Positions 3,727 through 38,953 of a DNA stretch of 64,000 nt are shown here, piece by piece. Source of the stretch: an uncultured Clostridium sp. (GTDB taxonomy: Bacteria; Bacillota; Clostridia; TANB77; CAG-508); contig CAJMJN010000001.1 in NCBI GenBank assembly GCA_905213875.1, positions 59,940 to 123,939 on the forward strand, in the 5' to 3' direction. Made by a program: the position numbers and the translations under genes. Position 1 is the first letter of the stretch, and every line of letters starts with the position of its first letter. The notes beneath the pieces are model-generated. The model did not search any database. It saw only the letters and a list, made by a program, of their open reading frames with translations, and was not told the origin of the DNA.

Positions 3727-3774
3727 TAAAATAGTAAAAAATATCAAAATTTGATAAAAAGTAAAGAATAAAAA

Positions 3775-3802
3775 AGAGGGATGATTAGCTAATCATTCCT
3801 CT
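3775..3802. terminator. 13-bp-stem hairpin between the convergent adhesin and tetR genes; likely bidirectional terminator that overlaps the tetR stop codon.
   Basis: AGAGGGATGATTA-GC-TAATCATTCCTCT with one G-U pair, flanked by A/T runs. Confidence 0.45.
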
Positions 3803-4372
3803 AATAGTCTTATACAAATAAGGCTTATATTCATCAATAGGTAAGGGTTCCTTGTATAAAATAGAATTAAAACAAGTAGAACCAACAAGTTCAATAATCA
3901 TAAACAATGTAACATCAGGATTTTCAATCTTGATGTTATTTTCTTTTATACCTTTAATAAATAAATCATAAACAGAATTTTCAGAATCCATACTTTTATC
4001 ATGCAAATTCAAAACAGTTTTATTAAAAACACCCCAAGACAAATTTTTAGAAATAAACTTTAAAAGCAAAGGATTTTTAGTTAATTCATCAATAACATAA
4101 TTAATAATATAAATAATACTATCAGAAAAATCTGAAATATAATTTTTTCTTAAAGATTTTAGTGCATCTGAAAATAATTTTTGAGATTTTTGTACAATTA
4201 AAATATCCCTAATTTCATATTTATCCTTAAAATAAAGGTAAAAAGTACCTTTTGCAACACTGGCATTATCAACTATTTCTTGTATAGAGGTATCTTTGGT
4301 ACCTTTTTCTGTAAATAATTTAAATGCTGTATTTAATAATCTATTTTGTTTTCCTTCTTTATCATTTTTCAT
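3785..4372 (-). CDS. TetR/AcrR family transcriptional regulator
   Basis: N-terminal TetR helix-turn-helix (LLNTAFKLFTEKGTKDTSIQEIVDNASVAKGTFYLYF). Divergent from the MMPL transporter gene. Confidence 0.85.
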   Translation of the reverse strand: MKNDKEGKQNRLLNTAFKLFTEKGTKDTSIQEIVDNASVAKGTFYLYFKDKYEIRDILIVQKSQKLFSDALKSLRKNYISDFSDSIIYIINYVIDELTKNPLLLKFISKNLSWGVFNKTVLNLHDKSMDSENSVYDLFIKGIKENNIKIENPDVTLFMIIELVGSTCFNSILYKEPLPIDEYKPYLYKTIRGMIS

Positions 4373-6798: not shown

Positions 6799-8814
6799 TT
6801 GGAAAGGAAGGATTCTAAAATGAAGAGTAATAAAGTAATTTCAAAAATAGTAGCAAGTACATTGTTATGCTCAATGGTAGGTTATACACTTCCTGTATTT
6901 GCATATACAAAAGATGAAACAGTATATTCAAAATTAGATAGTGAAGGGAAAAATTATAAAACAATAGTTAGTACACATATAGAAAATAGTGAATATGCTG
7001 ATACAATAAATGATATGTCAGATTTACTAAATATAAAAAATACAAGTGGTGATGAAACATATACACAAGATGGTAATAAATTTGTATGGAATGCAAATAA
7101 AAATGATATTTATTATCAAGGTGAATCAGAAAAAGAATTACCAATAGAGTGTGAAGTAAAATATGAATTAGATGGAAAAGAAGTTTCTGCAAATGAAATT
7201 GCAGGAAAAAGTGGAAAAGTAAAAATAACTTTACAATATAAAAATAAAGAAGAAAGAACAATTAATATTAATGGTAAAGATGAAAAAATGTATGTGCCAT
7301 TTGTAGTTGTTGCTGGAACTATTATAAAAAATGAAAATGCAAGAAATATAGAAATATCATCTGGTAAAGTAGTAGATGATGGAACAAAAACTGTAATAGT
7401 TGGTATGGCAATGCCAGGTTTACAAGAAAGTTTAGGAATTTCTAGTGATGAAATTGATATTCCAAATAATATAGAAATTACAATGGATGCAACAAATTTT
7501 GAAACAAGTAGTATAATGTCATATGTCACACCTAAAGTTATAGAAGAAGACGATTTAACAATATTTGACGATTTAGACGAAATGTATAATAAAGTAAATA
7601 CTTTACAAAGTTCTATGAATCAAATTCAAGATGGGGCAAACACATTAAAAGATGGAACAACAGAATTAGAAGCAGGTGCAAATACTTTAAAGAATGGTGT
7701 TAATACAGCATATAGTGGAGCTCAAACAATAACATCAGAAGTAGAAAAATCAACACAAAGTTTAAAAAATGATAATTCAGAAGCTTTAGATAATGCAACT
7801 TTAGAATCAATAAAAAAACAAGCTGCTGAAAGCAGTAAATTAACAGATGAACAAAAGGCACAAATAAAAGCTCAAGCTCAATCAGGCGCAACATTAACAC
7901 AAGAACAAAAAAATCAAATTTCTGCACAAGCTAAAGCAAAAGCAGTATTAACAGAAACACAAAAGACACAAATAACAGCAGTAGCAAAACAAGGAGCAGT
8001 ATTAACAGATGCGCAAAAAGCACAAATAAAAACACAAGCTAAAGAAAAAGCAGTATTAACAGATGCACAAAAAACACAAATAATAGCAAATGCACAATCA
8101 GCATATCCAACAACACTAACAGAAACAGAAAAAGCATTAATACTAACAACAGCTCAAAATACAGCAACACAAACAGCAGTGGCAACAGCACTAGAAACAG
8201 CCCAAAGCACAGCAACCAAAACAGCAGTAGCAACAGCATTAAATGTAGCGCAACAAATAGCAACACAGACAGCTGAAACAACAGCATTAGAAACAGCACA
8301 ACAAATAGCAACACAAACAGCAATAACAACAGCATTATCAACAGCTCAAAGTACAGCAACTACAACAGCAATGCAAACATCAACAACAGTTGCAAAACAA
8401 GTTGGAAATCAAGCTAAAAAAACATTTACAAATAAAGTAGTCTCACAAATGAGTACATTAGGAAATGGTTTAAATCAATTAACATCTGGCTTATCAGAAT
8501 TAAATAATGGAGCTACAACATTAGCAAATGGAACAACTCAAATTAATGATGGAGCAACAACTCTAGCAGATGGAATAAAAACATTTAATGAAGAAGGAAT
8601 CGAAAAAATCTGTAATTATATAAATGGAGATGCCAAAGATTTAACTACAAGAGTTGAGAAATTAACAGAATTATCTAAAGAATATAACAATTTTACAATG
8701 CTAGACGGAGAAAATTTAGGAGAAGTTAAATTTATTATGATTATTGATGCAGTAAAACAACAAACAGAAAATGAACAAAATAAAGAAGAAGCAATAGTAG
8801 AAGAAAATAAATAA
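6799..8814 (+). CDS. Secreted YhgE/Pip-like repeat protein with an N-terminal signal peptide and no C-terminal transmembrane domain. Carries Ala/Thr/Gln-rich tandem repeats.
   Basis: Signal peptide KIVASTLLCSMVGYTLPVFAYT. Pip-type TLKDGTTELEAGANTLKNG and LTSGLSELNNGATTLANG heptad segments. Six 18-aa LTDAQKAQIKTQAKEKAV-type repeats and four 15-aa TAVATALETAQSTAT-type repeats. Confidence 0.6.
   Translation: MERKDSKMKSNKVISKIVASTLLCSMVGYTLPVFAYTKDETVYSKLDSEGKNYKTIVSTHIENSEYADTINDMSDLLNIKNTSGDETYTQDGNKFVWNANKNDIYYQGESEKELPIECEVKYELDGKEVSANEIAGKSGKVKITLQYKNKEERTININGKDEKMYVPFVVVAGTIIKNENARNIEISSGKVVDDGTKTVIVGMAMPGLQESLGISSDEIDIPNNIEITMDATNFETSSIMSYVTPKVIEEDDLTIFDDLDEMYNKVNTLQSSMNQIQDGANTLKDGTTELEAGANTLKNGVNTAYSGAQTITSEVEKSTQSLKNDNSEALDNATLESIKKQAAESSKLTDEQKAQIKAQAQSGATLTQEQKNQISAQAKAKAVLTETQKTQITAVAKQGAVLTDAQKAQIKTQAKEKAVLTDAQKTQIIANAQSAYPTTLTETEKALILTTAQNTATQTAVATALETAQSTATKTAVATALNVAQQIATQTAETTALETAQQIATQTAITTALSTAQSTATTTAMQTSTTVAKQVGNQAKKTFTNKVVSQMSTLGNGLNQLTSGLSELNNGATTLANGTTQINDGATTLADGIKTFNEEGIEKICNYINGDAKDLTTRVEKLTELSKEYNNFTMLDGENLGEVKFIMIIDAVKQQTENEQNKEEAIVEENK
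7843..8380 (+). repeat. Intragenic tandem repeats inside the 6799-8814 gene: 54-bp units about six times, then 45-bp units about four times.
   Basis: Periodic LT(D/E)xQKxQI and TAxxTALxxAQ units in the translation. The DNA is visibly periodic. Confidence 0.6.
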
Positions 8815-11509: not shown

Positions 11510-11549
11510 TGTTTGTAATTATACATTTTAATTTAATACAAAAGAAGGC

Positions 11550-11722
11550 TTGAAATATAAGATTTTTATTACATTCCTCGGCTTATTACGAAATTTACGA
11601 AATTCTAACTTGTTTTTATGGAACCCTTCCATTAAAAATGAACTCTTTCCATAAAAGCTACGTAAGAATTTCTAAAATTTCTCTATGCACATTCGTCATT
11701 GCATTCAAATCTTATATTTCAA
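11550..11722 (+). repeat. MITE-like intergenic element, copy A. About 170 bp with 16-bp terminal inverted repeats TTGAAATATAAGATTT / AAATCTTATATTTCAA.
   Basis: Core TTACATTCCTCGGCTTATT...AACTCTTTCCATAAAAGCT.CGTAAGAATTTCTAAA...GCACATTCGTCATT is shared with the copies at 14669-14845 and 38741-38911. Confidence 0.6.
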
Positions 11723-11816
11723 GTCTTTCTTATAATATTAAATTATTAAAACAAATTGCTAAATCAAAAGAAATATGATATAGTAATTTAGAAATAAATT
11801 AGGAGGAATAATTGCA

Positions 11817-14627: not shown

Positions 14628-14668
14628 AATTTGAAATTGTTATAAGATAATGTTTTATTTAAGGAAAA

Positions 14669-14845
14669 ACTTTTAAATATGAACTTTTCATTGCGTTCCT
14701 CGGCTTATTTTGAAATTTAAGAAATTCTAACTTGTTTTATGGCACCATTCCATTAAAAATGAACTCTTTCCATAAAAGCTGCGTAAGAATTTCTAAAGTT
14801 TCTCCATTCGCATTCGTAACTTCATTCAAAGTTTATATTTAAAAG
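14669..14845 (+). repeat. MITE-like intergenic element, copy B, with 17-bp terminal inverted repeats carrying one mismatch
   Basis: CTTTTAAATATGAACTTT ... AAAGTTTATATTTAAAAG. The core matches copy A at about 85% identity. Confidence 0.6.
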
Positions 14846-14901
14846 CTTTTCCTAGAATATAAATTATTATTTTATAATTAATTAGAAAAGAGAAATGTAG
14901 T

Positions 14902-16220: not shown

Positions 16221-17162
16221 TTATTTTAAAGATAAAATTTCTTTTTCAGTTAAACCTGTTACAATGGAAATTTGTTTTATAGGAATATTTTGGAGAATCA
16301 TATTTTTGGCTATTTTTTTAATACCTATCTGTTCACCTCTTTTTATTCCACTTTCCATACCTTCATTCCAGCCTTGTTCTTTTGCATACCTCATTCCTGA
16401 ATTATAGTCTCTCATTGCTCTATCTCGGGCTTCATATAGATTCCATGCTTCTTTGTCTGCACTTAGTTCTTCTAATACTTTTTCTGCTTTTTCGATCTCT
16501 TTTACTCTTTTCTCTATATCTTTCATCTTTTCCTTCCTTCCAGCAATAAAATATAACCATTGCTCTAATTTCGTTTTGGGCTCTGGTGCTTTTTTTATGA
16601 ATTTAGGTAGTTCTATAAAATGCATTTCTAAATCTGTAGTTGCTATTTCATCTTCATCTGTATATCCCATATCTATGTATTCTTCTTTTTTAGTTTTCTC
16701 AAATTTCATATGTGCTATACTTCTATAACTATTTCTTTTGTAAAATTCAAATGCTAGTAAATTTATTCCTATAGATTTCTTTACTGCCTTATAGTCATCT
16801 CCTCGCCTCATCTCACTTGATAAATTTTTACTTATATAATATGTACTTCTATGATCTATATTCCATACGTTTTTTACTTGCATTTCTATATCACATATTA
16901 TATCTTCATCAACTCGTACTTTTATATCCATAACACCTGCTTTATTGTCAAATGAATCCACTGGTAATTCTGTATTTTGAACCTGTACTTCTTTTATATC
17001 TATGTCTAAAATAGCTTCTAATAATGACTTTAGAATATCTTCATTTCCAGGTCTTGAAAATACTGCTTTAAATATTACATCAGATGTTAATGGCAATAAT
17101 TTTTTCTTTTGATTAGTATCATTTCCCCCTAATGATATAATTTTATCGGTTTTATCTAACAA
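16221..17162 (-). CDS. Rpn/YhgA-like family (PD-(D/E)XK) recombination-promoting nuclease, sometimes annotated as a putative transposase
   Basis: N-terminal DVIFKAVF...MDIKVRVDEDIICDIEMQ motif block and a C-terminal helical repeat, typical of Rpn-family proteins. Confidence 0.65.
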   Translation of the reverse strand: MLDKTDKIISLGGNDTNQKKKLLPLTSDVIFKAVFSRPGNEDILKSLLEAILDIDIKEVQVQNTELPVDSFDNKAGVMDIKVRVDEDIICDIEMQVKNVWNIDHRSTYYISKNLSSEMRRGDDYKAVKKSIGINLLAFEFYKRNSYRSIAHMKFEKTKKEEYIDMGYTDEDEIATTDLEMHFIELPKFIKKAPEPKTKLEQWLYFIAGRKEKMKDIEKRVKEIEKAEKVLEELSADKEAWNLYEARDRAMRDYNSGMRYAKEQGWNEGMESGIKRGEQIGIKKIAKNMILQNIPIKQISIVTGLTEKEILSLK

Positions 17163-36165: not shown

Positions 36166-37038
36166 CTAAGCAGAGCCTTGTATTTTTCTTTTTTGAACTT
36201 TATATGTTATTTTTGCAACAAAATTTGATGGTGCTATTTTCGCTCCAAATCTTGCTAGTTTTACATCAATTCCAGGTACTATATAAAACTTACCTTTTTC
36301 TAATTTTCTAATTGCATATTTTGCAACCTGCATACTATTAGCCTCTCTTAAGCTAAATTTTACATTTGCAACTTTGTTAAAATTTGTTTCTACTGGTCCT
36401 GGACATAATATGCTTATTTGTACTTTTGATTTTTCCTTTTTTAATTCTTCTCTTATTGCCTCTGATATCCTAACAATATAATTTTTTGTAGCATAATATG
36501 TTGCCATTAATGGGCCTGGCATAAATCCTGCTATTGATGCTACATTTAATATTTTTCCGCTATTTTTCTTTTTCATTTCTTTTAAATATAATTTAGTTAA
36601 AATATGGTATGCAATTACATTTGTTTTTATCATTGAAATATCTTTGTTTAAATCTGTTTCACTAAATCTTCCACAATCTCCAAAGCCTGCATTATTAATT
36701 AGTATATCAATATCTTTTACTTTATTTGCTAATTCTATGCAATTTTGTTCTTCACTTAAATCCATTTGAATTATTTCAATTTTGTTGGTTGCTTTTTTGC
36801 TATTTTTATATGCTTTTTCTATTTTGTTGGTTGCTTTTTTGCTATTTTTATATGCTTTTTCTATTTTATTATTTTCAATTGTTGGTTCGTTTTGAACTGA
36901 TTTTTCCAACTCTTTTTTGGTTTGTTCTAATTTTTCTATGTCTCTTGCTACTAATACTAAATTATATCCTTTTTGATTTAGTATTTTTGCCATATCTTTT
37001 CCTATTCCAGAAGATGCTCCTGTTATTAAAGCTTTCAT
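36166..37038 (-). CDS. SDR family oxidoreductase with an inserted lysine-rich segment that contains an in-frame 42-bp tandem duplication
   Basis: TGASSGIGKD Rossmann motif and YxxxK. The insertion reads NKIEKAYKNSKKATNKIEKAYKNSKKATNKIE. Confidence 0.8.
   Translation of the reverse strand: MKALITGASSGIGKDMAKILNQKGYNLVLVARDIEKLEQTKKELEKSVQNEPTIENNKIEKAYKNSKKATNKIEKAYKNSKKATNKIEIIQMDLSEEQNCIELANKVKDIDILINNAGFGDCGRFSETDLNKDISMIKTNVIAYHILTKLYLKEMKKKNSGKILNVASIAGFMPGPLMATYYATKNYIVRISEAIREELKKEKSKVQISILCPGPVETNFNKVANVKFSLREANSMQVAKYAIRKLEKGKFYIVPGIDVKLARFGAKIAPSNFVAKITYKVQKRKIQGSA
36786..36869. repeat. Perfect 42-bp tandem duplication (two copies) inside the SDR gene
   Basis: GTTGGTTGCTTTTTTGCTATTTTTATATGCTTTTTCTATTTT occurs twice in direct succession. 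Confidence 0.8.
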
Positions 37039-38705: not shown

Positions 38706-38740
38706 TTTGAATTCCTCTCTCTATTTATTTAGTATTAACT

Positions 38741-38911
38741 TACAGATATAATTTTATATGAAATGACGAATGTGCATGAAAAAGCTTTAAAAATTCTTAT
38801 GTAATTTTATGGAAAGAGTTCTTTTTTAATTGAAGGGTGCCATAAAATAAATTAGAATTTTTTAAGATTTGCAGTAATCCGAGGAATGTAATAAAAAATT
38901 TATATCTGTAC
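38741..38911 (-). repeat. MITE-like intergenic element, copy C, in minus orientation and inserted between sufS and sufU
   Basis: The reverse complement matches copies A and B (TTACATTCCTCGGATTA...AACTCTTTCCATAAAA...GCACATTCGTCATT). Terminal inverted repeats TACAGATATAATTTT / AAAATTTATATCTGTA. Confidence 0.6.
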
Positions 38912-38953
38912 GTTGCAACAACTGTGAAATGATTTTTTGCTCCGTCCCCAAAA

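What the first reader, a model, noticed from the sequence alone, without database searches (positions are those of the whole stretch)
11550..11722. About 170-bp MITE-like element in three copies (11550-11722, 14669-14845 and 38741-38911 in reverse), one inside the suf operon
Three intergenic segments share an approximately 85%-identical core and each is bounded by 15-17-bp terminal inverted repeats. The core contains a conserved hairpin, ATGGAACCCTTCCAT. Every copy lies directly downstream of a gene and in the same orientation as that gene: after spoIIE, after the 13389 ORF, and between sufS and sufU. The third copy sits inside a polycistronic operon. The family is either a non-autonomous mobile element, a dispersed small-RNA or terminator family, or both. 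It is not explained by any annotated gene.
Basis: seen in the sequence. Interest (0 to 1): 0.6.

Follow-up and report, generated by a model that had tools for sequence, protein, structure and literature searches.

The report
Foldback MITE family in gut Clostridia
The three repeats are old, fixed copies of a previously undescribed small mobile DNA element (a MITE) found in uncultured gut Clostridia; they matter mainly because the element's hairpin-forming middle part is kept unusually constant for reasons not yet known.

Summary
Three ~185-nt segments (11542-11731 +, 14663-14852 +, 38738-38913 -) are 84% alike and are the only copies in the window. I recovered 90 relatives in 30 species-level MAGs, all uncultured gut Clostridia; none matched Rfam, plasmids or phages.

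Intact relatives are ~254 bp. They end in GTTACAGGTTAATGGTTT...AAACCATTAACCTGTAAC and carry 8-bp target-site duplications (four perfect, two 7/8). Presence/absence alleles exist, including two strains of the window species that lack the core between sufS and sufU. The core also lies in opposite orientations at three orthologous loci.

The whole element folds into a long hairpin with strong double-sided covariation. However, G-U is no commoner than A-C, one third of informative copies lie antisense to their genes, and antisense copies are as conserved as sense copies. I therefore read the pairing as a DNA-palindrome property, not proof of a functional RNA.

One puzzle remains. In orthologous resident copies the ~125-nt inner core is better conserved (96.4%) than the flanking, mostly coding DNA (93.0%).

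No transposase partner, promoter, terminator or ORF was found. Verdict: a new member of a known kind, of modest interest.

The parts
11542..11731 (+). Copy A: P1 stem plus core, in the spoIIE (stop 11509) to WG-repeat gene (start 11817) spacer. The homology envelope to the 254-bp long form is 11517-11756; outer TIRs are no longer recognisable.
11542..11565 (+). Copy A, P1 5' arm.
11566..11706 (+). Copy A inner core: the asymmetric loop J1/2 (..CATTCCTCGGCTTATTAC), P2 (17 bp with an A.A mismatch), P3 (TTTTATGG/CCATAAAA), P4 hairpin 11630-11640, and loop J2/1 (..GCACATTCGTCAT..).
11707..11731 (+). Copy A, P1 3' arm.
14639..14878 (+). Copy B, full element (240 bp), lying between the 13389 ORF (stop 14627) and acpS (start 14902). 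P1 plus core is 14663-14852.
14639..14656 (+). Copy B, left outer TIR remnant GTTATAAGATAATGTTTT. It matches 17/18 to the family variant GTTATAAGATAATGGTTT.
14861..14878 (+). Copy B, right outer TIR remnant. Its reverse complement ATTATAAAATAATAATTT matches 14/18 to the same variant. No target-site duplication survives (TTGAAATT versus TAATTAGA).
38738..38913 (-). Copy C: P1 plus core in the 248-nt sufS-sufU spacer. P1 arms are 38895-38913 and 38738-38755; the inner core is 38756-38894; the envelope is 38727-38927.
38712..38719 (-). sufU Shine-Dalgarno sequence GAGAGGAA. It lies 18 nt beyond the end of the hairpin, where the right outer TIR would have been, and is not sequestered by the element.

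Best explanation
The three segments are resident copies of a non-autonomous DNA transposon family (a foldback-type MITE) of uncultured, very AT-rich gut Clostridia. They are fixed or nearly fixed in the species.

Shown:
- Intact members are about 254 bp long, end in 18-bp terminal inverted repeats (5'-GTTACAGGTTAATGGTTT ... AAACCATTAACCTGTAAC-3') and are flanked by 8-bp direct duplications of AT-rich target DNA.
- They usually sit a few tens of nucleotides after the 3' end of a gene.
- Inside the TIRs lies a ~185-nt module. It forms one long hairpin: P1 (20-30 bp, free in sequence); a large asymmetric internal loop with two conserved strands (CAUUCCUCGG.. and ..GCACAUUCGUCAU); P2 (17 bp with a conserved A.A mismatch); P3 (invariant UUUUAUGG/CCAUAAAA); a pyrimidine-rich 8x8 loop; and a small covarying P4.

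Inferred:
- Copies were spread by a DDE-type transposase supplied in trans that makes 8-bp staggered cuts. That enzyme was not found.
- The perfect but sequence-variable pairing is kept mainly at the DNA level, through arm-to-arm template switching or gene conversion typical of quasi-palindromes. The same process would explain in-situ inversion of the core and occasional conversion of a loop into a perfect palindrome.
- The window copies have lost their outer TIRs (B partly keeps them) and can no longer move.
- They are passively co-transcribed. In the mRNA they would form a strong hairpin in the 3' UTR or intercistronic spacer, between sufS and sufU for copy C.
- Copy C is dispensable, because sister strains lack the core.
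- The inner core evolves more slowly than neighbouring coding DNA, so something beyond mobility constrains it. What that is remains unknown.
For: - Family size and host range: 90 copies in 30 species-level MAGs, up to 11 per MAG, all Clostridia.
- TIRs: the outer TIR motif was found only flanking cores, and 10 full-length copies match a 255-position long-form model end to end.
- TSDs: flank matches of 8/8 in four copies, 7/8 in two and 6/8 in one, plus one 7-nt duplication read one base out of register. Mismatched flank pairs average 2.9/8, with 1 of 90 reaching 7 or more.
- Presence/absence: L102 is filled and L099 empty, with 96-97% identical flanks. At the suf site the spacer is 248 nt with the core in most strains but 109 nt without it in L150 and L152 (98-99% identical proteins), which keep the left P1 arm and a right-TIR-like GGAAAACATAAATTGTAAC. 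Relatives at 78-87% SufU identity mostly have spacers of under 100 nt (commonly 9-27 nt).
- Inversion: the core is inverted between orthologous loci in L118/L127 (flanks 98.7%), L047/L083, and L096 versus L056/L065.
- Structure: 92.4% of cells are paired against 79.1% when shuffled; 400 double-sided changes against 120; slid registers give 37-57%.
- DNA-level signature: G-U 39 against A-C 52, with almost no one-sided changes. In L074 the 3' loop has been replaced by the reverse complement of the 5' loop. The outermost arm bases are copy-specific yet complementary.
- Non-coding, unsignalled and unknown: no conserved ORF; no promoter or terminator consensus; no Rfam, plasmid, phage or literature match.
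- Fixation: A and B are identical or nearly so in 10 strains, and C likewise in 10.
Against: - No autonomous partner was found. There is no transposase bounded by these TIRs in ~0.75 Mb of loci or in viral contigs.
- TSDs are demonstrated only for the GTTAC-type subfamily. Other subfamilies have different outer arms and no clear direct duplication.
- The window copies themselves show no TSD.
- The one clean empty site (L099) does not reconstruct a perfect TSD.
- The L150/L152 suf allele is not a simple empty site.
- In orthologous resident copies the inner core is 96.4% identical against 93.0% for flanking, mostly coding DNA (p = 4e-7), while the arms are at 92.2%. A copy also sits upstream of rlmN in three distant MAGs, where only the core and the -10 box still align. 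A purely parasitic, decaying MITE does not predict this.
- The 39:20 orientation bias (p = 0.018) also hints at some strand-dependent effect.
Confidence: 0.68

Rival explanations
1. The core is primarily a functional structured RNA: a cis-acting mRNA element such as an RNase III or stability/termination module, or a 6S-like or regulatory sRNA with C/U-rich loops. The MITE is only its vehicle.
For: - Long hairpin with a very low folding energy (z = -9.1) and heavy double-sided covariation.
- Unpaired strands are the most conserved parts and are pyrimidine-rich, resembling anti-Shine-Dalgarno sequences.
- There is a 39:20 bias toward the sense orientation.
- The inner core is more conserved than coding flanks in resident copies.
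- All three window copies are sense, fixed or nearly fixed, and lie directly upstream of the next gene.
- The overall shape (closing stem, ~24x25-nt central bubble, inner stem) recalls 6S RNA.
Against: - G-U (39) is not enriched over A-C (52), and one-sided changes are almost absent.
- One third of informative copies are antisense and are equally conserved (median 132.0 against 134.8 bits, p = 0.57).
- The core flips in place between close relatives.
- There is no promoter or terminator consensus.
- No Rfam hit appears, 6S included, even at E <= 10.
- Neighbouring genes are unrelated in function.
- The core is absent from the suf spacer in L150 and L152.
Confidence: 0.12
2. The inner core is a domesticated DNA-level site, comparable to REP/BIME or IHF-binding Correia elements. 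A host protein (nucleoid, topoisomerase or recombination factor, or an HUH/RAYT-like enzyme acting on the extruded hairpin) would bind the conserved loop motifs, and this binding would be why the core is conserved.
For: - Conservation is independent of transcription orientation.
- Pairing is symmetric and Watson-Crick only.
- The inner core is constrained in resident copies while the arms drift.
- The motif ACATTC(C/G)TC occurs on both strands of the big internal loop.
- The same core occurs inside different outer arms in different MAG lineages.
- The upstream-of-rlmN position is retained across distant MAGs.
Against: - No candidate protein is known and no association with any gene was found.
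- Copy number per genome is modest.
- Conservation could instead come from conversion between copies.
- The core is lost without replacement in some strains.
Confidence: 0.14
3. The element is an invertible DNA switch (an inverton). The P1 arms would be recombination sites for an invertase, and the asymmetric core would carry an orientation-dependent signal that controls the neighbouring gene.
For: Inverted repeats of 20-30 bp flank a ~135-nt asymmetric segment. Opposite orientations are found at three orthologous loci.
Against: - There is no sigma-70-type promoter in the core on either strand.
- The arms differ in sequence from copy to copy, so they cannot be a common invertase site.
- All 10-16 strains of the window species have the same orientation at A, B and C.
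- Inversions are seen only between species-level lineages.
Confidence: 0.04

Closest known systems
bcr1 repeat of the Bacillus cereus group (Okstad 2004; Klevan 2007; reviewed in PMC3184786)
   Same: A Firmicute, ~155-bp, non-coding, dispersed repeat with the properties of a non-autonomous mobile element. It is flanked by short direct repeats, its distribution is not conserved between strains, and compensatory changes keep a folded structure.
   Different: bcr1 has 5-bp duplications and a cruciform of two independent stem-loops, and it is known to be transcribed. Here the duplications are 8 bp, the fold is a single long hairpin with a large asymmetric bubble, the hosts differ, and the core is found inside different outer arms. 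Sequence similarity to bcr1 was not tested.
Correia/NEMIS elements of Neisseria, ERIC/YPAL of Enterobacteria and RUP/BOX/SPRITE of pneumococcus (own knowledge; listed in PMC3184786)
   Same: These are 100-170-bp imperfect palindromes inserted in transcribed intergenic DNA, including inside operons. They fold as RNA hairpins and can alter mRNA processing or stability.
   Different: Correia elements duplicate TA and have conserved 26-bp TIRs. Here the TSD is 8 bp, and the most conserved part is the interior, not the ends. No RNase III, IHF or promoter role has been shown here.
REP/BIME and REPIN-RAYT systems
   Same: Dispersed hairpin-forming intergenic repeats. Their pairing is preserved, they lie after genes and inside operons, and some have been co-opted as protein-binding or mRNA-stabilising sites.
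   Different: REPINs are shorter and G+C-rich, make no target duplication and depend on a RAYT gene. Here there are TIRs and TSDs, the element is very A+T-rich, and no RAYT was looked for or seen.
Quasi-palindrome template-switch correction (Ripley model; own knowledge)
   Same: It explains complementary double changes without G-U intermediates, conversion of a loop into a perfect palindrome (L074), apparent outward growth of the arms, and inversion.
   Different: It is a mutational process, not an element family. Its operation here is inferred from sequence patterns only.

Membership tests
MITE (non-autonomous DNA transposon) | Short (<~600 bp) and non-coding | tested here: met
   Elements are 185-254 bp (up to ~390 bp in one subfamily). 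The median longest ORF is 21 aa, with no conserved reading frame.
MITE (non-autonomous DNA transposon) | Terminal inverted repeats | tested here: met
   GTTACAGGTTAATGGTTT / AAACCATTAACCTGTAAC bound 10 full-length copies. In the window only copy B keeps them.
MITE (non-autonomous DNA transposon) | Direct target-site duplication of fixed length | tested here: met
   An 8-bp duplication: 8/8 in four copies, 7/8 in two and 6/8 in one. Control flank pairs average 2.9/8, with 1 of 90 reaching 7 or more. It is not seen in the window copies or in the other subfamilies.
MITE (non-autonomous DNA transposon) | Many dispersed copies with insertion polymorphism | tested here: met
   90 copies in 30 MAGs. 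L102 is filled and L099 empty. The suf site exists with and without the core.
MITE (non-autonomous DNA transposon) | A related autonomous IS with the same termini | tested here: inconclusive
   None was found in the loci held or in viral contigs.
Any Rfam 15 RNA family (including 6S RNA, riboswitches, ribozymes, omega RNA/HEARO) | Score at or above the family's gathering threshold | tested here: not met
   The window yields only 3 tRNAs. Copy A at E <= 10 gives only spurious sub-threshold hits. Eighteen diverse loci yield only an unrelated T-box.
Cis-regulatory or structured RNA (generic) | Fixed orientation relative to the transcribed gene, and G-U-tolerant covariation | tested here: not met
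   Orientation is 39 sense to 20 antisense. G-U 39 against A-C 52. Antisense copies are equally conserved.
Inverton (invertible promoter switch) | Both orientations at one locus within a population, a promoter inside, and common recombinase sites | tested here: not met
   Opposite orientations occur only between species-level MAGs. No promoter consensus is present. The arms differ between copies. Read-level heterogeneity cannot be tested with these tools.
bcr1 (B. cereus group) | 5-bp flanking direct repeats (TTTAT by my recollection of the primary papers) and a two-stem cruciform fold | tested here: not met
   Here the duplication is 8 bp and of variable sequence, and the fold is a single hairpin. 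The bcr1 features are taken from PMC3184786.
REPIN/RAYT | No target duplication; a cognate RAYT gene in the genome | tested here: not met
   Target duplications are present. RAYT presence was not tested.

The most novel reading that the evidence does not exclude
The ~125-nt inner core may be a host-constrained functional module rather than junk. It comprises the two conserved loop strands CAUUCCUCGG.. and ..GCACAUUCGUCAU, the invariant P3 and the pyrimidine-rich loops. It could be a protein-binding hairpin in DNA, or an RNA with a 6S-like bubble architecture. On this reading it has been carried into dozens of intergenic sites by several different sets of transposon ends and then retained by selection. 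That would make it a Clostridial counterpart of REP/BIME elements, with a far more elaborate conserved structure.
Probability: 0.25. Interest if true: 0.65.

Novelty: new member of a known kind. Interest (0 to 1): 0.36.

Why it matters
- It adds a well-defined MITE family, with known termini, 8-bp duplications, a structural model and a 70-sequence alignment, for a clade of abundant but uncultured human-gut Clostridia. No such repeat has been catalogued for them. Annotators might otherwise mistake the strong covariation for a new riboswitch or sRNA.
- It gives a worked example of how palindrome dynamics can imitate RNA covariation: Watson-Crick-only compensation, in-place inversion, and conversion of a loop into stem.
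- It shows that the sufS-sufU junction of these organisms tolerates, and repeatedly receives, small inserted cassettes.
- If the excess conservation of the inner core reflects function, the family would be a tractable entry point to a new class of dispersed protein- or RNA-level signals in low-GC anaerobes.

Tried and rejected
1. GNRA tetraloops as proof of an RNA strand: on inspection the P4 loops are GCAAG pentaloops, ATA triloops, UCUC and others. Argument withdrawn.
2. Insertion into the apex of pre-existing host hairpins or terminators as the source of the variable P1 arms: the L099 empty site contains no P1 arm sequence, so the arms arrive with the insertion.
3. Promoter or terminator inside the element: consensus scans gave nothing consistent in A, B or C, and manual hexamer searches on both strands gave nothing.
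4. A small protein: a recurrent minus-strand ATG (MTNVH..) exists, but its length varies from 13 to 26 aa and it has no Shine-Dalgarno sequence; P4 indels break all frames.
5. Autonomous partner:
   - A TIR search with up to 3 mismatches in all loci gave two hits away from cores: L131, which lies inside an ORF and is a chance match, and a 3-mismatch hit in viral locus L015 that was not examined.
   - A viral-contig scan gave one chance hit in coding DNA.
   - All-against-all comparison of 470 ORFs found no multicopy gene.
6. Orthology of copy A with L114: rejected, because the shared flank is part of the element. In L108 a copy also follows spoIIE but has a perfect TSD and is an independent insertion.
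7. Orientation relative to replication: GC skew in the window simply tracks the gene strand, so it cannot be tested.
8. Plasmid, phage and literature searches by sequence: no hits.
9. The 17-mer scan of viral contigs gave 33 hits, of which only L039 is real, and it is a truncated 3' half.

Full report
**1. The observation**

They align with 84% mean column identity. A profile built from them finds only these three in the 64-kb window (E = 1e-40 to 1e-54).

Each segment lies in an intergenic spacer, co-oriented with both neighbours:
- Copy A lies between spoIIE and a WG-repeat gene.
- Copy B lies between an unannotated 412-aa ORF and acpS.
- Copy C lies on the minus strand between sufS and sufU.

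The window has 26% G+C. Each copy is bounded by a 15-18-bp inverted repeat and folds into one long hairpin far better than shuffled sequence. For copy A, z = -9.1 as RNA and -6.0 for the opposite strand as DNA; for copy C, z = -4.6. Rfam 15 has nothing at these places, either at gathering thresholds or at E <= 10.

**2. The family**

I scanned one genome per species with two invariant core motifs (TTCCTCGG, a 40-65-nt gap, GAACTCTTTCCAT). The scan returned 93 stretches. Profile searching confirmed 90 copies in 30 assemblies. All are MAGs labelled uncultured Clostridia, Clostridium or Eubacteriales, from human, rabbit and chicken guts, with up to 11 copies per MAG. That number is a lower bound, because the pattern had to match exactly. 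The ten hits in other phyla are false.

The window species corresponds to MAG CAKPKJ (sufS 100% identical), which has at least four further copies. There is no match in 72,556 plasmids or 50,697 phage records, and none in the literature by sequence. One IMG/VR contig carries a truncated 3' half.

**3. Anatomy**

An alignment of 70 non-redundant copies (A4) gives a consensus hairpin with these parts:
- P1, 20-30 bp. Its centre (AAATATAA/TTATATTT) is fairly constant, but its outer part differs from copy to copy.
- A large asymmetric internal loop. Both strands are highly conserved (..CATTACATTCCTCGGCTTATTAC and TCCATGCACATTCGTCATTTCATTC) and share the direct motif ACATTC(C/G)TC.
- P2, 17 bp with a conserved A.A mismatch.
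- P3, TTTTATGG/CCATAAAA, invariant.
- An 8x8 pyrimidine-rich loop (CACCCTTC / AACTCTTT).
- A 3-5-bp P4 that covaries (CAT/ATG, CAC/GTG, CGT/ACG, CAAG/CTTG, CGCG/CGCG).

Pairing is strongly supported. 92.4% of cells are paired against 79.1% in column shuffles. There are 400 double-sided changes against 120. Slid registers give 37-57%.

**4. It is a MITE, but the real ends are further out**

When the two flanks of each copy are compared as reverse complements, many copies show a second, outer pair of inverted repeats about 37 nt beyond P1: GTTACAGGTTAATGGTTT ... AAACCATTAACCTGTAAC. In the loci held, this motif occurs only around cores. A 255-position model of this long form matches 10 copies end to end and roughly eight more nearly so.

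Immediately outside these termini lie 8-bp direct repeats:
- AAATAGTA, GGTAAAAA, AAATAAAA and ATATAAAT are perfect.
- Two more match 7/8 and one matches 6/8.
- One shows a 7-nt repeat (GAAATAG) offset by one base.
- Two fail, and one of those has a recombinant flank.

Flank pairs taken from different copies average 2.9/8, and only 1 of 90 reaches 7. This is the signature of cut-and-paste or replicative insertion with 8-bp staggered cuts.

The window copies match the long-form model only over positions 33-223 (A), 29-221 (B) and 47-206 (C). Copy B still has recognisable termini at 14639-14656 and 14861-14878. A and C do not, and none keeps a duplication.

Other MAG lineages carry the same core inside different outer arms:
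- CAKPDR has arms of at least 105 nt beginning GTTACCAGTAGGGACACCC.
- CAKPRG has ATGATATATATTGTTTT plus an extra 45-nt G+C-rich block on one side.
- Still other arms occur in L133, L046 and L123/L067/L089.

For these subfamilies I could not define direct duplications.

**5. Presence/absence and age**

- L102 carries a copy at 3774-3942 that is missing from the 96-97% identical orthologous site in L099. The junction does not reconstruct a perfect duplication.
- Copies A and B are present, with 0-5 substitutions, in all 10 strains recovered through AcpS.
- Copy C is present in 10 of 10 strains recovered through SufU and in 4 of 6 near-identical (98-99% SufU) metagenome contigs.
- The other two contigs (L150, L152; 98-99% identical SufS and SufU) have a 109-nt spacer. 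It keeps the left P1 arm and a right-TIR-like GGAAAACATAAATTGTAAC but lacks the core. The two alleles cannot be derived from each other by one simple deletion.
- In relatives at 78-87% SufU identity the sufS-sufU gap is mostly under 100 nt (commonly 9-27 nt), or else holds unrelated cassettes.
- The insertion into the suf operon is therefore specific to this species lineage, and the core is dispensable there.
- In L108 (a distant relative with the same spoIIE...tatD synteny) a copy also follows spoIIE. It has a perfect duplication and is nearly identical to another copy in that genome, so it is an independent, recent insertion. The copy-B site in that genome is occupied by a plain AT-rich hairpin instead.

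**6. Position and orientation**

Across the family the element sits nearer the 3' end of the preceding gene (median roughly 40-60 nt from the core) than the start of the next gene (roughly 130 nt), whichever way it points. Between co-directional genes it is sense in 39 cases and antisense in 20 (binomial p = 0.018). Core conservation does not differ between the two classes (median 134.8 against 132.0 bits; p = 0.57).

**7. DNA-level dynamics**

Among non-Watson-Crick cells, G-U (39) is no commoner than A-C (52). One-sided changes are almost absent, while U-A to A-U flips are common. A functional RNA normally shows the opposite pattern.

The core lies in opposite orientation at three sets of orthologous loci:
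- L118 versus L127 (flanks 98.7% identical; the alignment shows identical flanks with the core reverse-complemented);
- L047 versus L083;
- L096 versus L056/L065.

Seven other orthologous sets keep their orientation. In L074 the 3' loop strand has been overwritten by the reverse complement of the 5' strand, giving a perfect palindrome. The outermost few bases of the arms are copy-specific yet complementary.

Together these patterns fit arm-to-arm template switching or conversion in a quasi-palindrome. This is an inference, based on the established Ripley/Lovett mechanism. It would generate 'compensatory' pairs without any selection on RNA.

**8. What does not fit a purely decaying parasite**

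In twelve orthologous pairs of resident copies:
- the inner core is 96.4% identical (1449/1503);
- the flanking 2 x 300 nt, mostly coding, are 93.0% identical (5582/6000; Fisher p = 4e-7);
- the P1 arms are 92.2% identical.

A copy also lies upstream of rlmN in three MAGs whose RlmN proteins share at least 60% identity (one copy inverted). There, only the core and the TGTGATATAA -10 box remain alignable in the spacer. Either the host selects for the core, or conversion between copies keeps pulling residents toward the family consensus, or these are repeated insertions at hot spots. I cannot separate these possibilities.

**9. Mechanism adopted, and its status**

Shown:
- membership of a dispersed family;
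- TIRs and 8-bp duplications in one subfamily;
- insertion polymorphism;
- in-place inversion;
- a hairpin supported by covariation;
- the absence of an ORF, a promoter or terminator consensus, and any Rfam match.

Inferred:
- mobilisation in trans by an unidentified DDE transposase;
- maintenance of the stems by palindrome correction;
- the window copies being immobile remnants that are co-transcribed with their neighbours;
- formation of a stable stem-loop in the spoIIE and 13389-ORF 3' UTRs and between sufS and sufU, where it might act like intercistronic REP hairpins on mRNA decay.

In copy C the sufU ribosome-binding site (38712-38719) lies outside the hairpin, so translation of sufU should not be blocked.

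Unknown: why the inner core is so constant.

**10. Comparison with known elements**

The closest analogue is bcr1 of the B. cereus group. It is ~155 bp, has 5-bp duplications, is transcribed and shows compensatory changes (PMC3184786). After that come the Correia, ERIC/YPAL and RUP/BOX elements and REP/REPIN.

The present family differs in four respects: the duplication length, its single-hairpin architecture with a large conserved bubble, an interior more conserved than the termini, and the same interior occurring inside several kinds of outer arms. It meets four of the five defining features of a MITE; the fifth, an autonomous partner, was sought and not found. It fails the tests for a cis-regulatory RNA, an inverton, any Rfam family, and REPIN.

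**11. Verdict**

The finding is real and the mobile-element reading is right in substance, though the features cited for it were misassigned. It is a new member of a known kind and of modest interest. One open lead remains: the constrained core. If it proves functional, the finding would be considerably more interesting.

Noticed in passing
L009:1222-1531 (same species as the window; corresponds to the sufD/sufS junction near window 40162): One strain carries a ~310-bp insertion between sufD and sufS, which overlap in the window and in nine other strains. The insertion holds a G+C-rich hairpin (GCTCCCAATC..GATTGGGAG) and a small hydrophobic ORF on the opposite strand. It looks like a small membrane-peptide or type-I-toxin-like cassette.
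   Followed up: partly
L163, L164, L200, L203, L206, L207, L210, L222 (gaps 424-451 nt); L168, L187, L215 (329-445 nt); L165, L173, L178 (528-622 nt): the sufS-sufU spacers of related species: In relatives at 79-86% SufU identity the sufS-sufU junction holds unrelated cassettes. The sequences I read carry small ORFs, some with their own promoter-like sequences. One example is MNILLIIIIAYISIILNITLLSILLLVISNKNK in L163, which is type-I-toxin-like and flanked by hairpins. L165 and L178 carry longer ORFs. The junction appears to be a recurrent landing site for small selfish cassettes.
   Followed up: partly
window 16221-17162 (-): A PD-(D/E)XK 'transposase' (PF12784, Rpn/YhgA-like, 313 aa) lies downstream of tatD. 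It is present in the window and in most strains, but is absent or replaced by a shorter ORF in L140, L142 and L143 (in L143 the region is ~1.3 kb shorter). It shows no similarity to the MITE termini.
   Followed up: partly
window 7839-8405, inside the ORF 6799-8814 (+): Two overlapping families of in-frame tandem repeats with periods of 54 and 48 nt and 60-74% identity. This indicates a repeat-containing protein.
   Followed up: no
window 36774-36857: A 42-nt unit is duplicated in tandem at 98% identity, within the region of the 290-aa ORF 36166-37038 (-).
   Followed up: no
L048, L098, L131 (MAG CAKPRG), between the outer arm and P1 on the 3' side of the element: This subfamily carries an extra ~45-nt G+C-rich block (reverse complement GAAATACCGCGTAGCGAYCAAACGAGC..GCGAGTGC) on one side only. 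Its nature is unknown.
   Followed up: no
L039:7727-7823 (-), IMG/VR contig 3300045988_180998: A predicted viral or prophage contig carries only the 3' half of the core, joined directly to an intrinsic-terminator-like hairpin (GAGCGGAAAAC..GTTTTCTGCTC followed by a T run).
   Followed up: no
L094, about 60-110 nt beyond the 3' end of its copy (roughly L094:4140-4190): A (GT)n microsatellite of about 13 units lies next to the element. This is unusual in a genome this A+T-rich.
   Followed up: no
L110:2102-2333 (-): A T-box leader (RF00230, 95 bits) lies about 50 nt from a copy of the element, on the opposite strand. It was the only Rfam hit in 18 loci.
   Followed up: no
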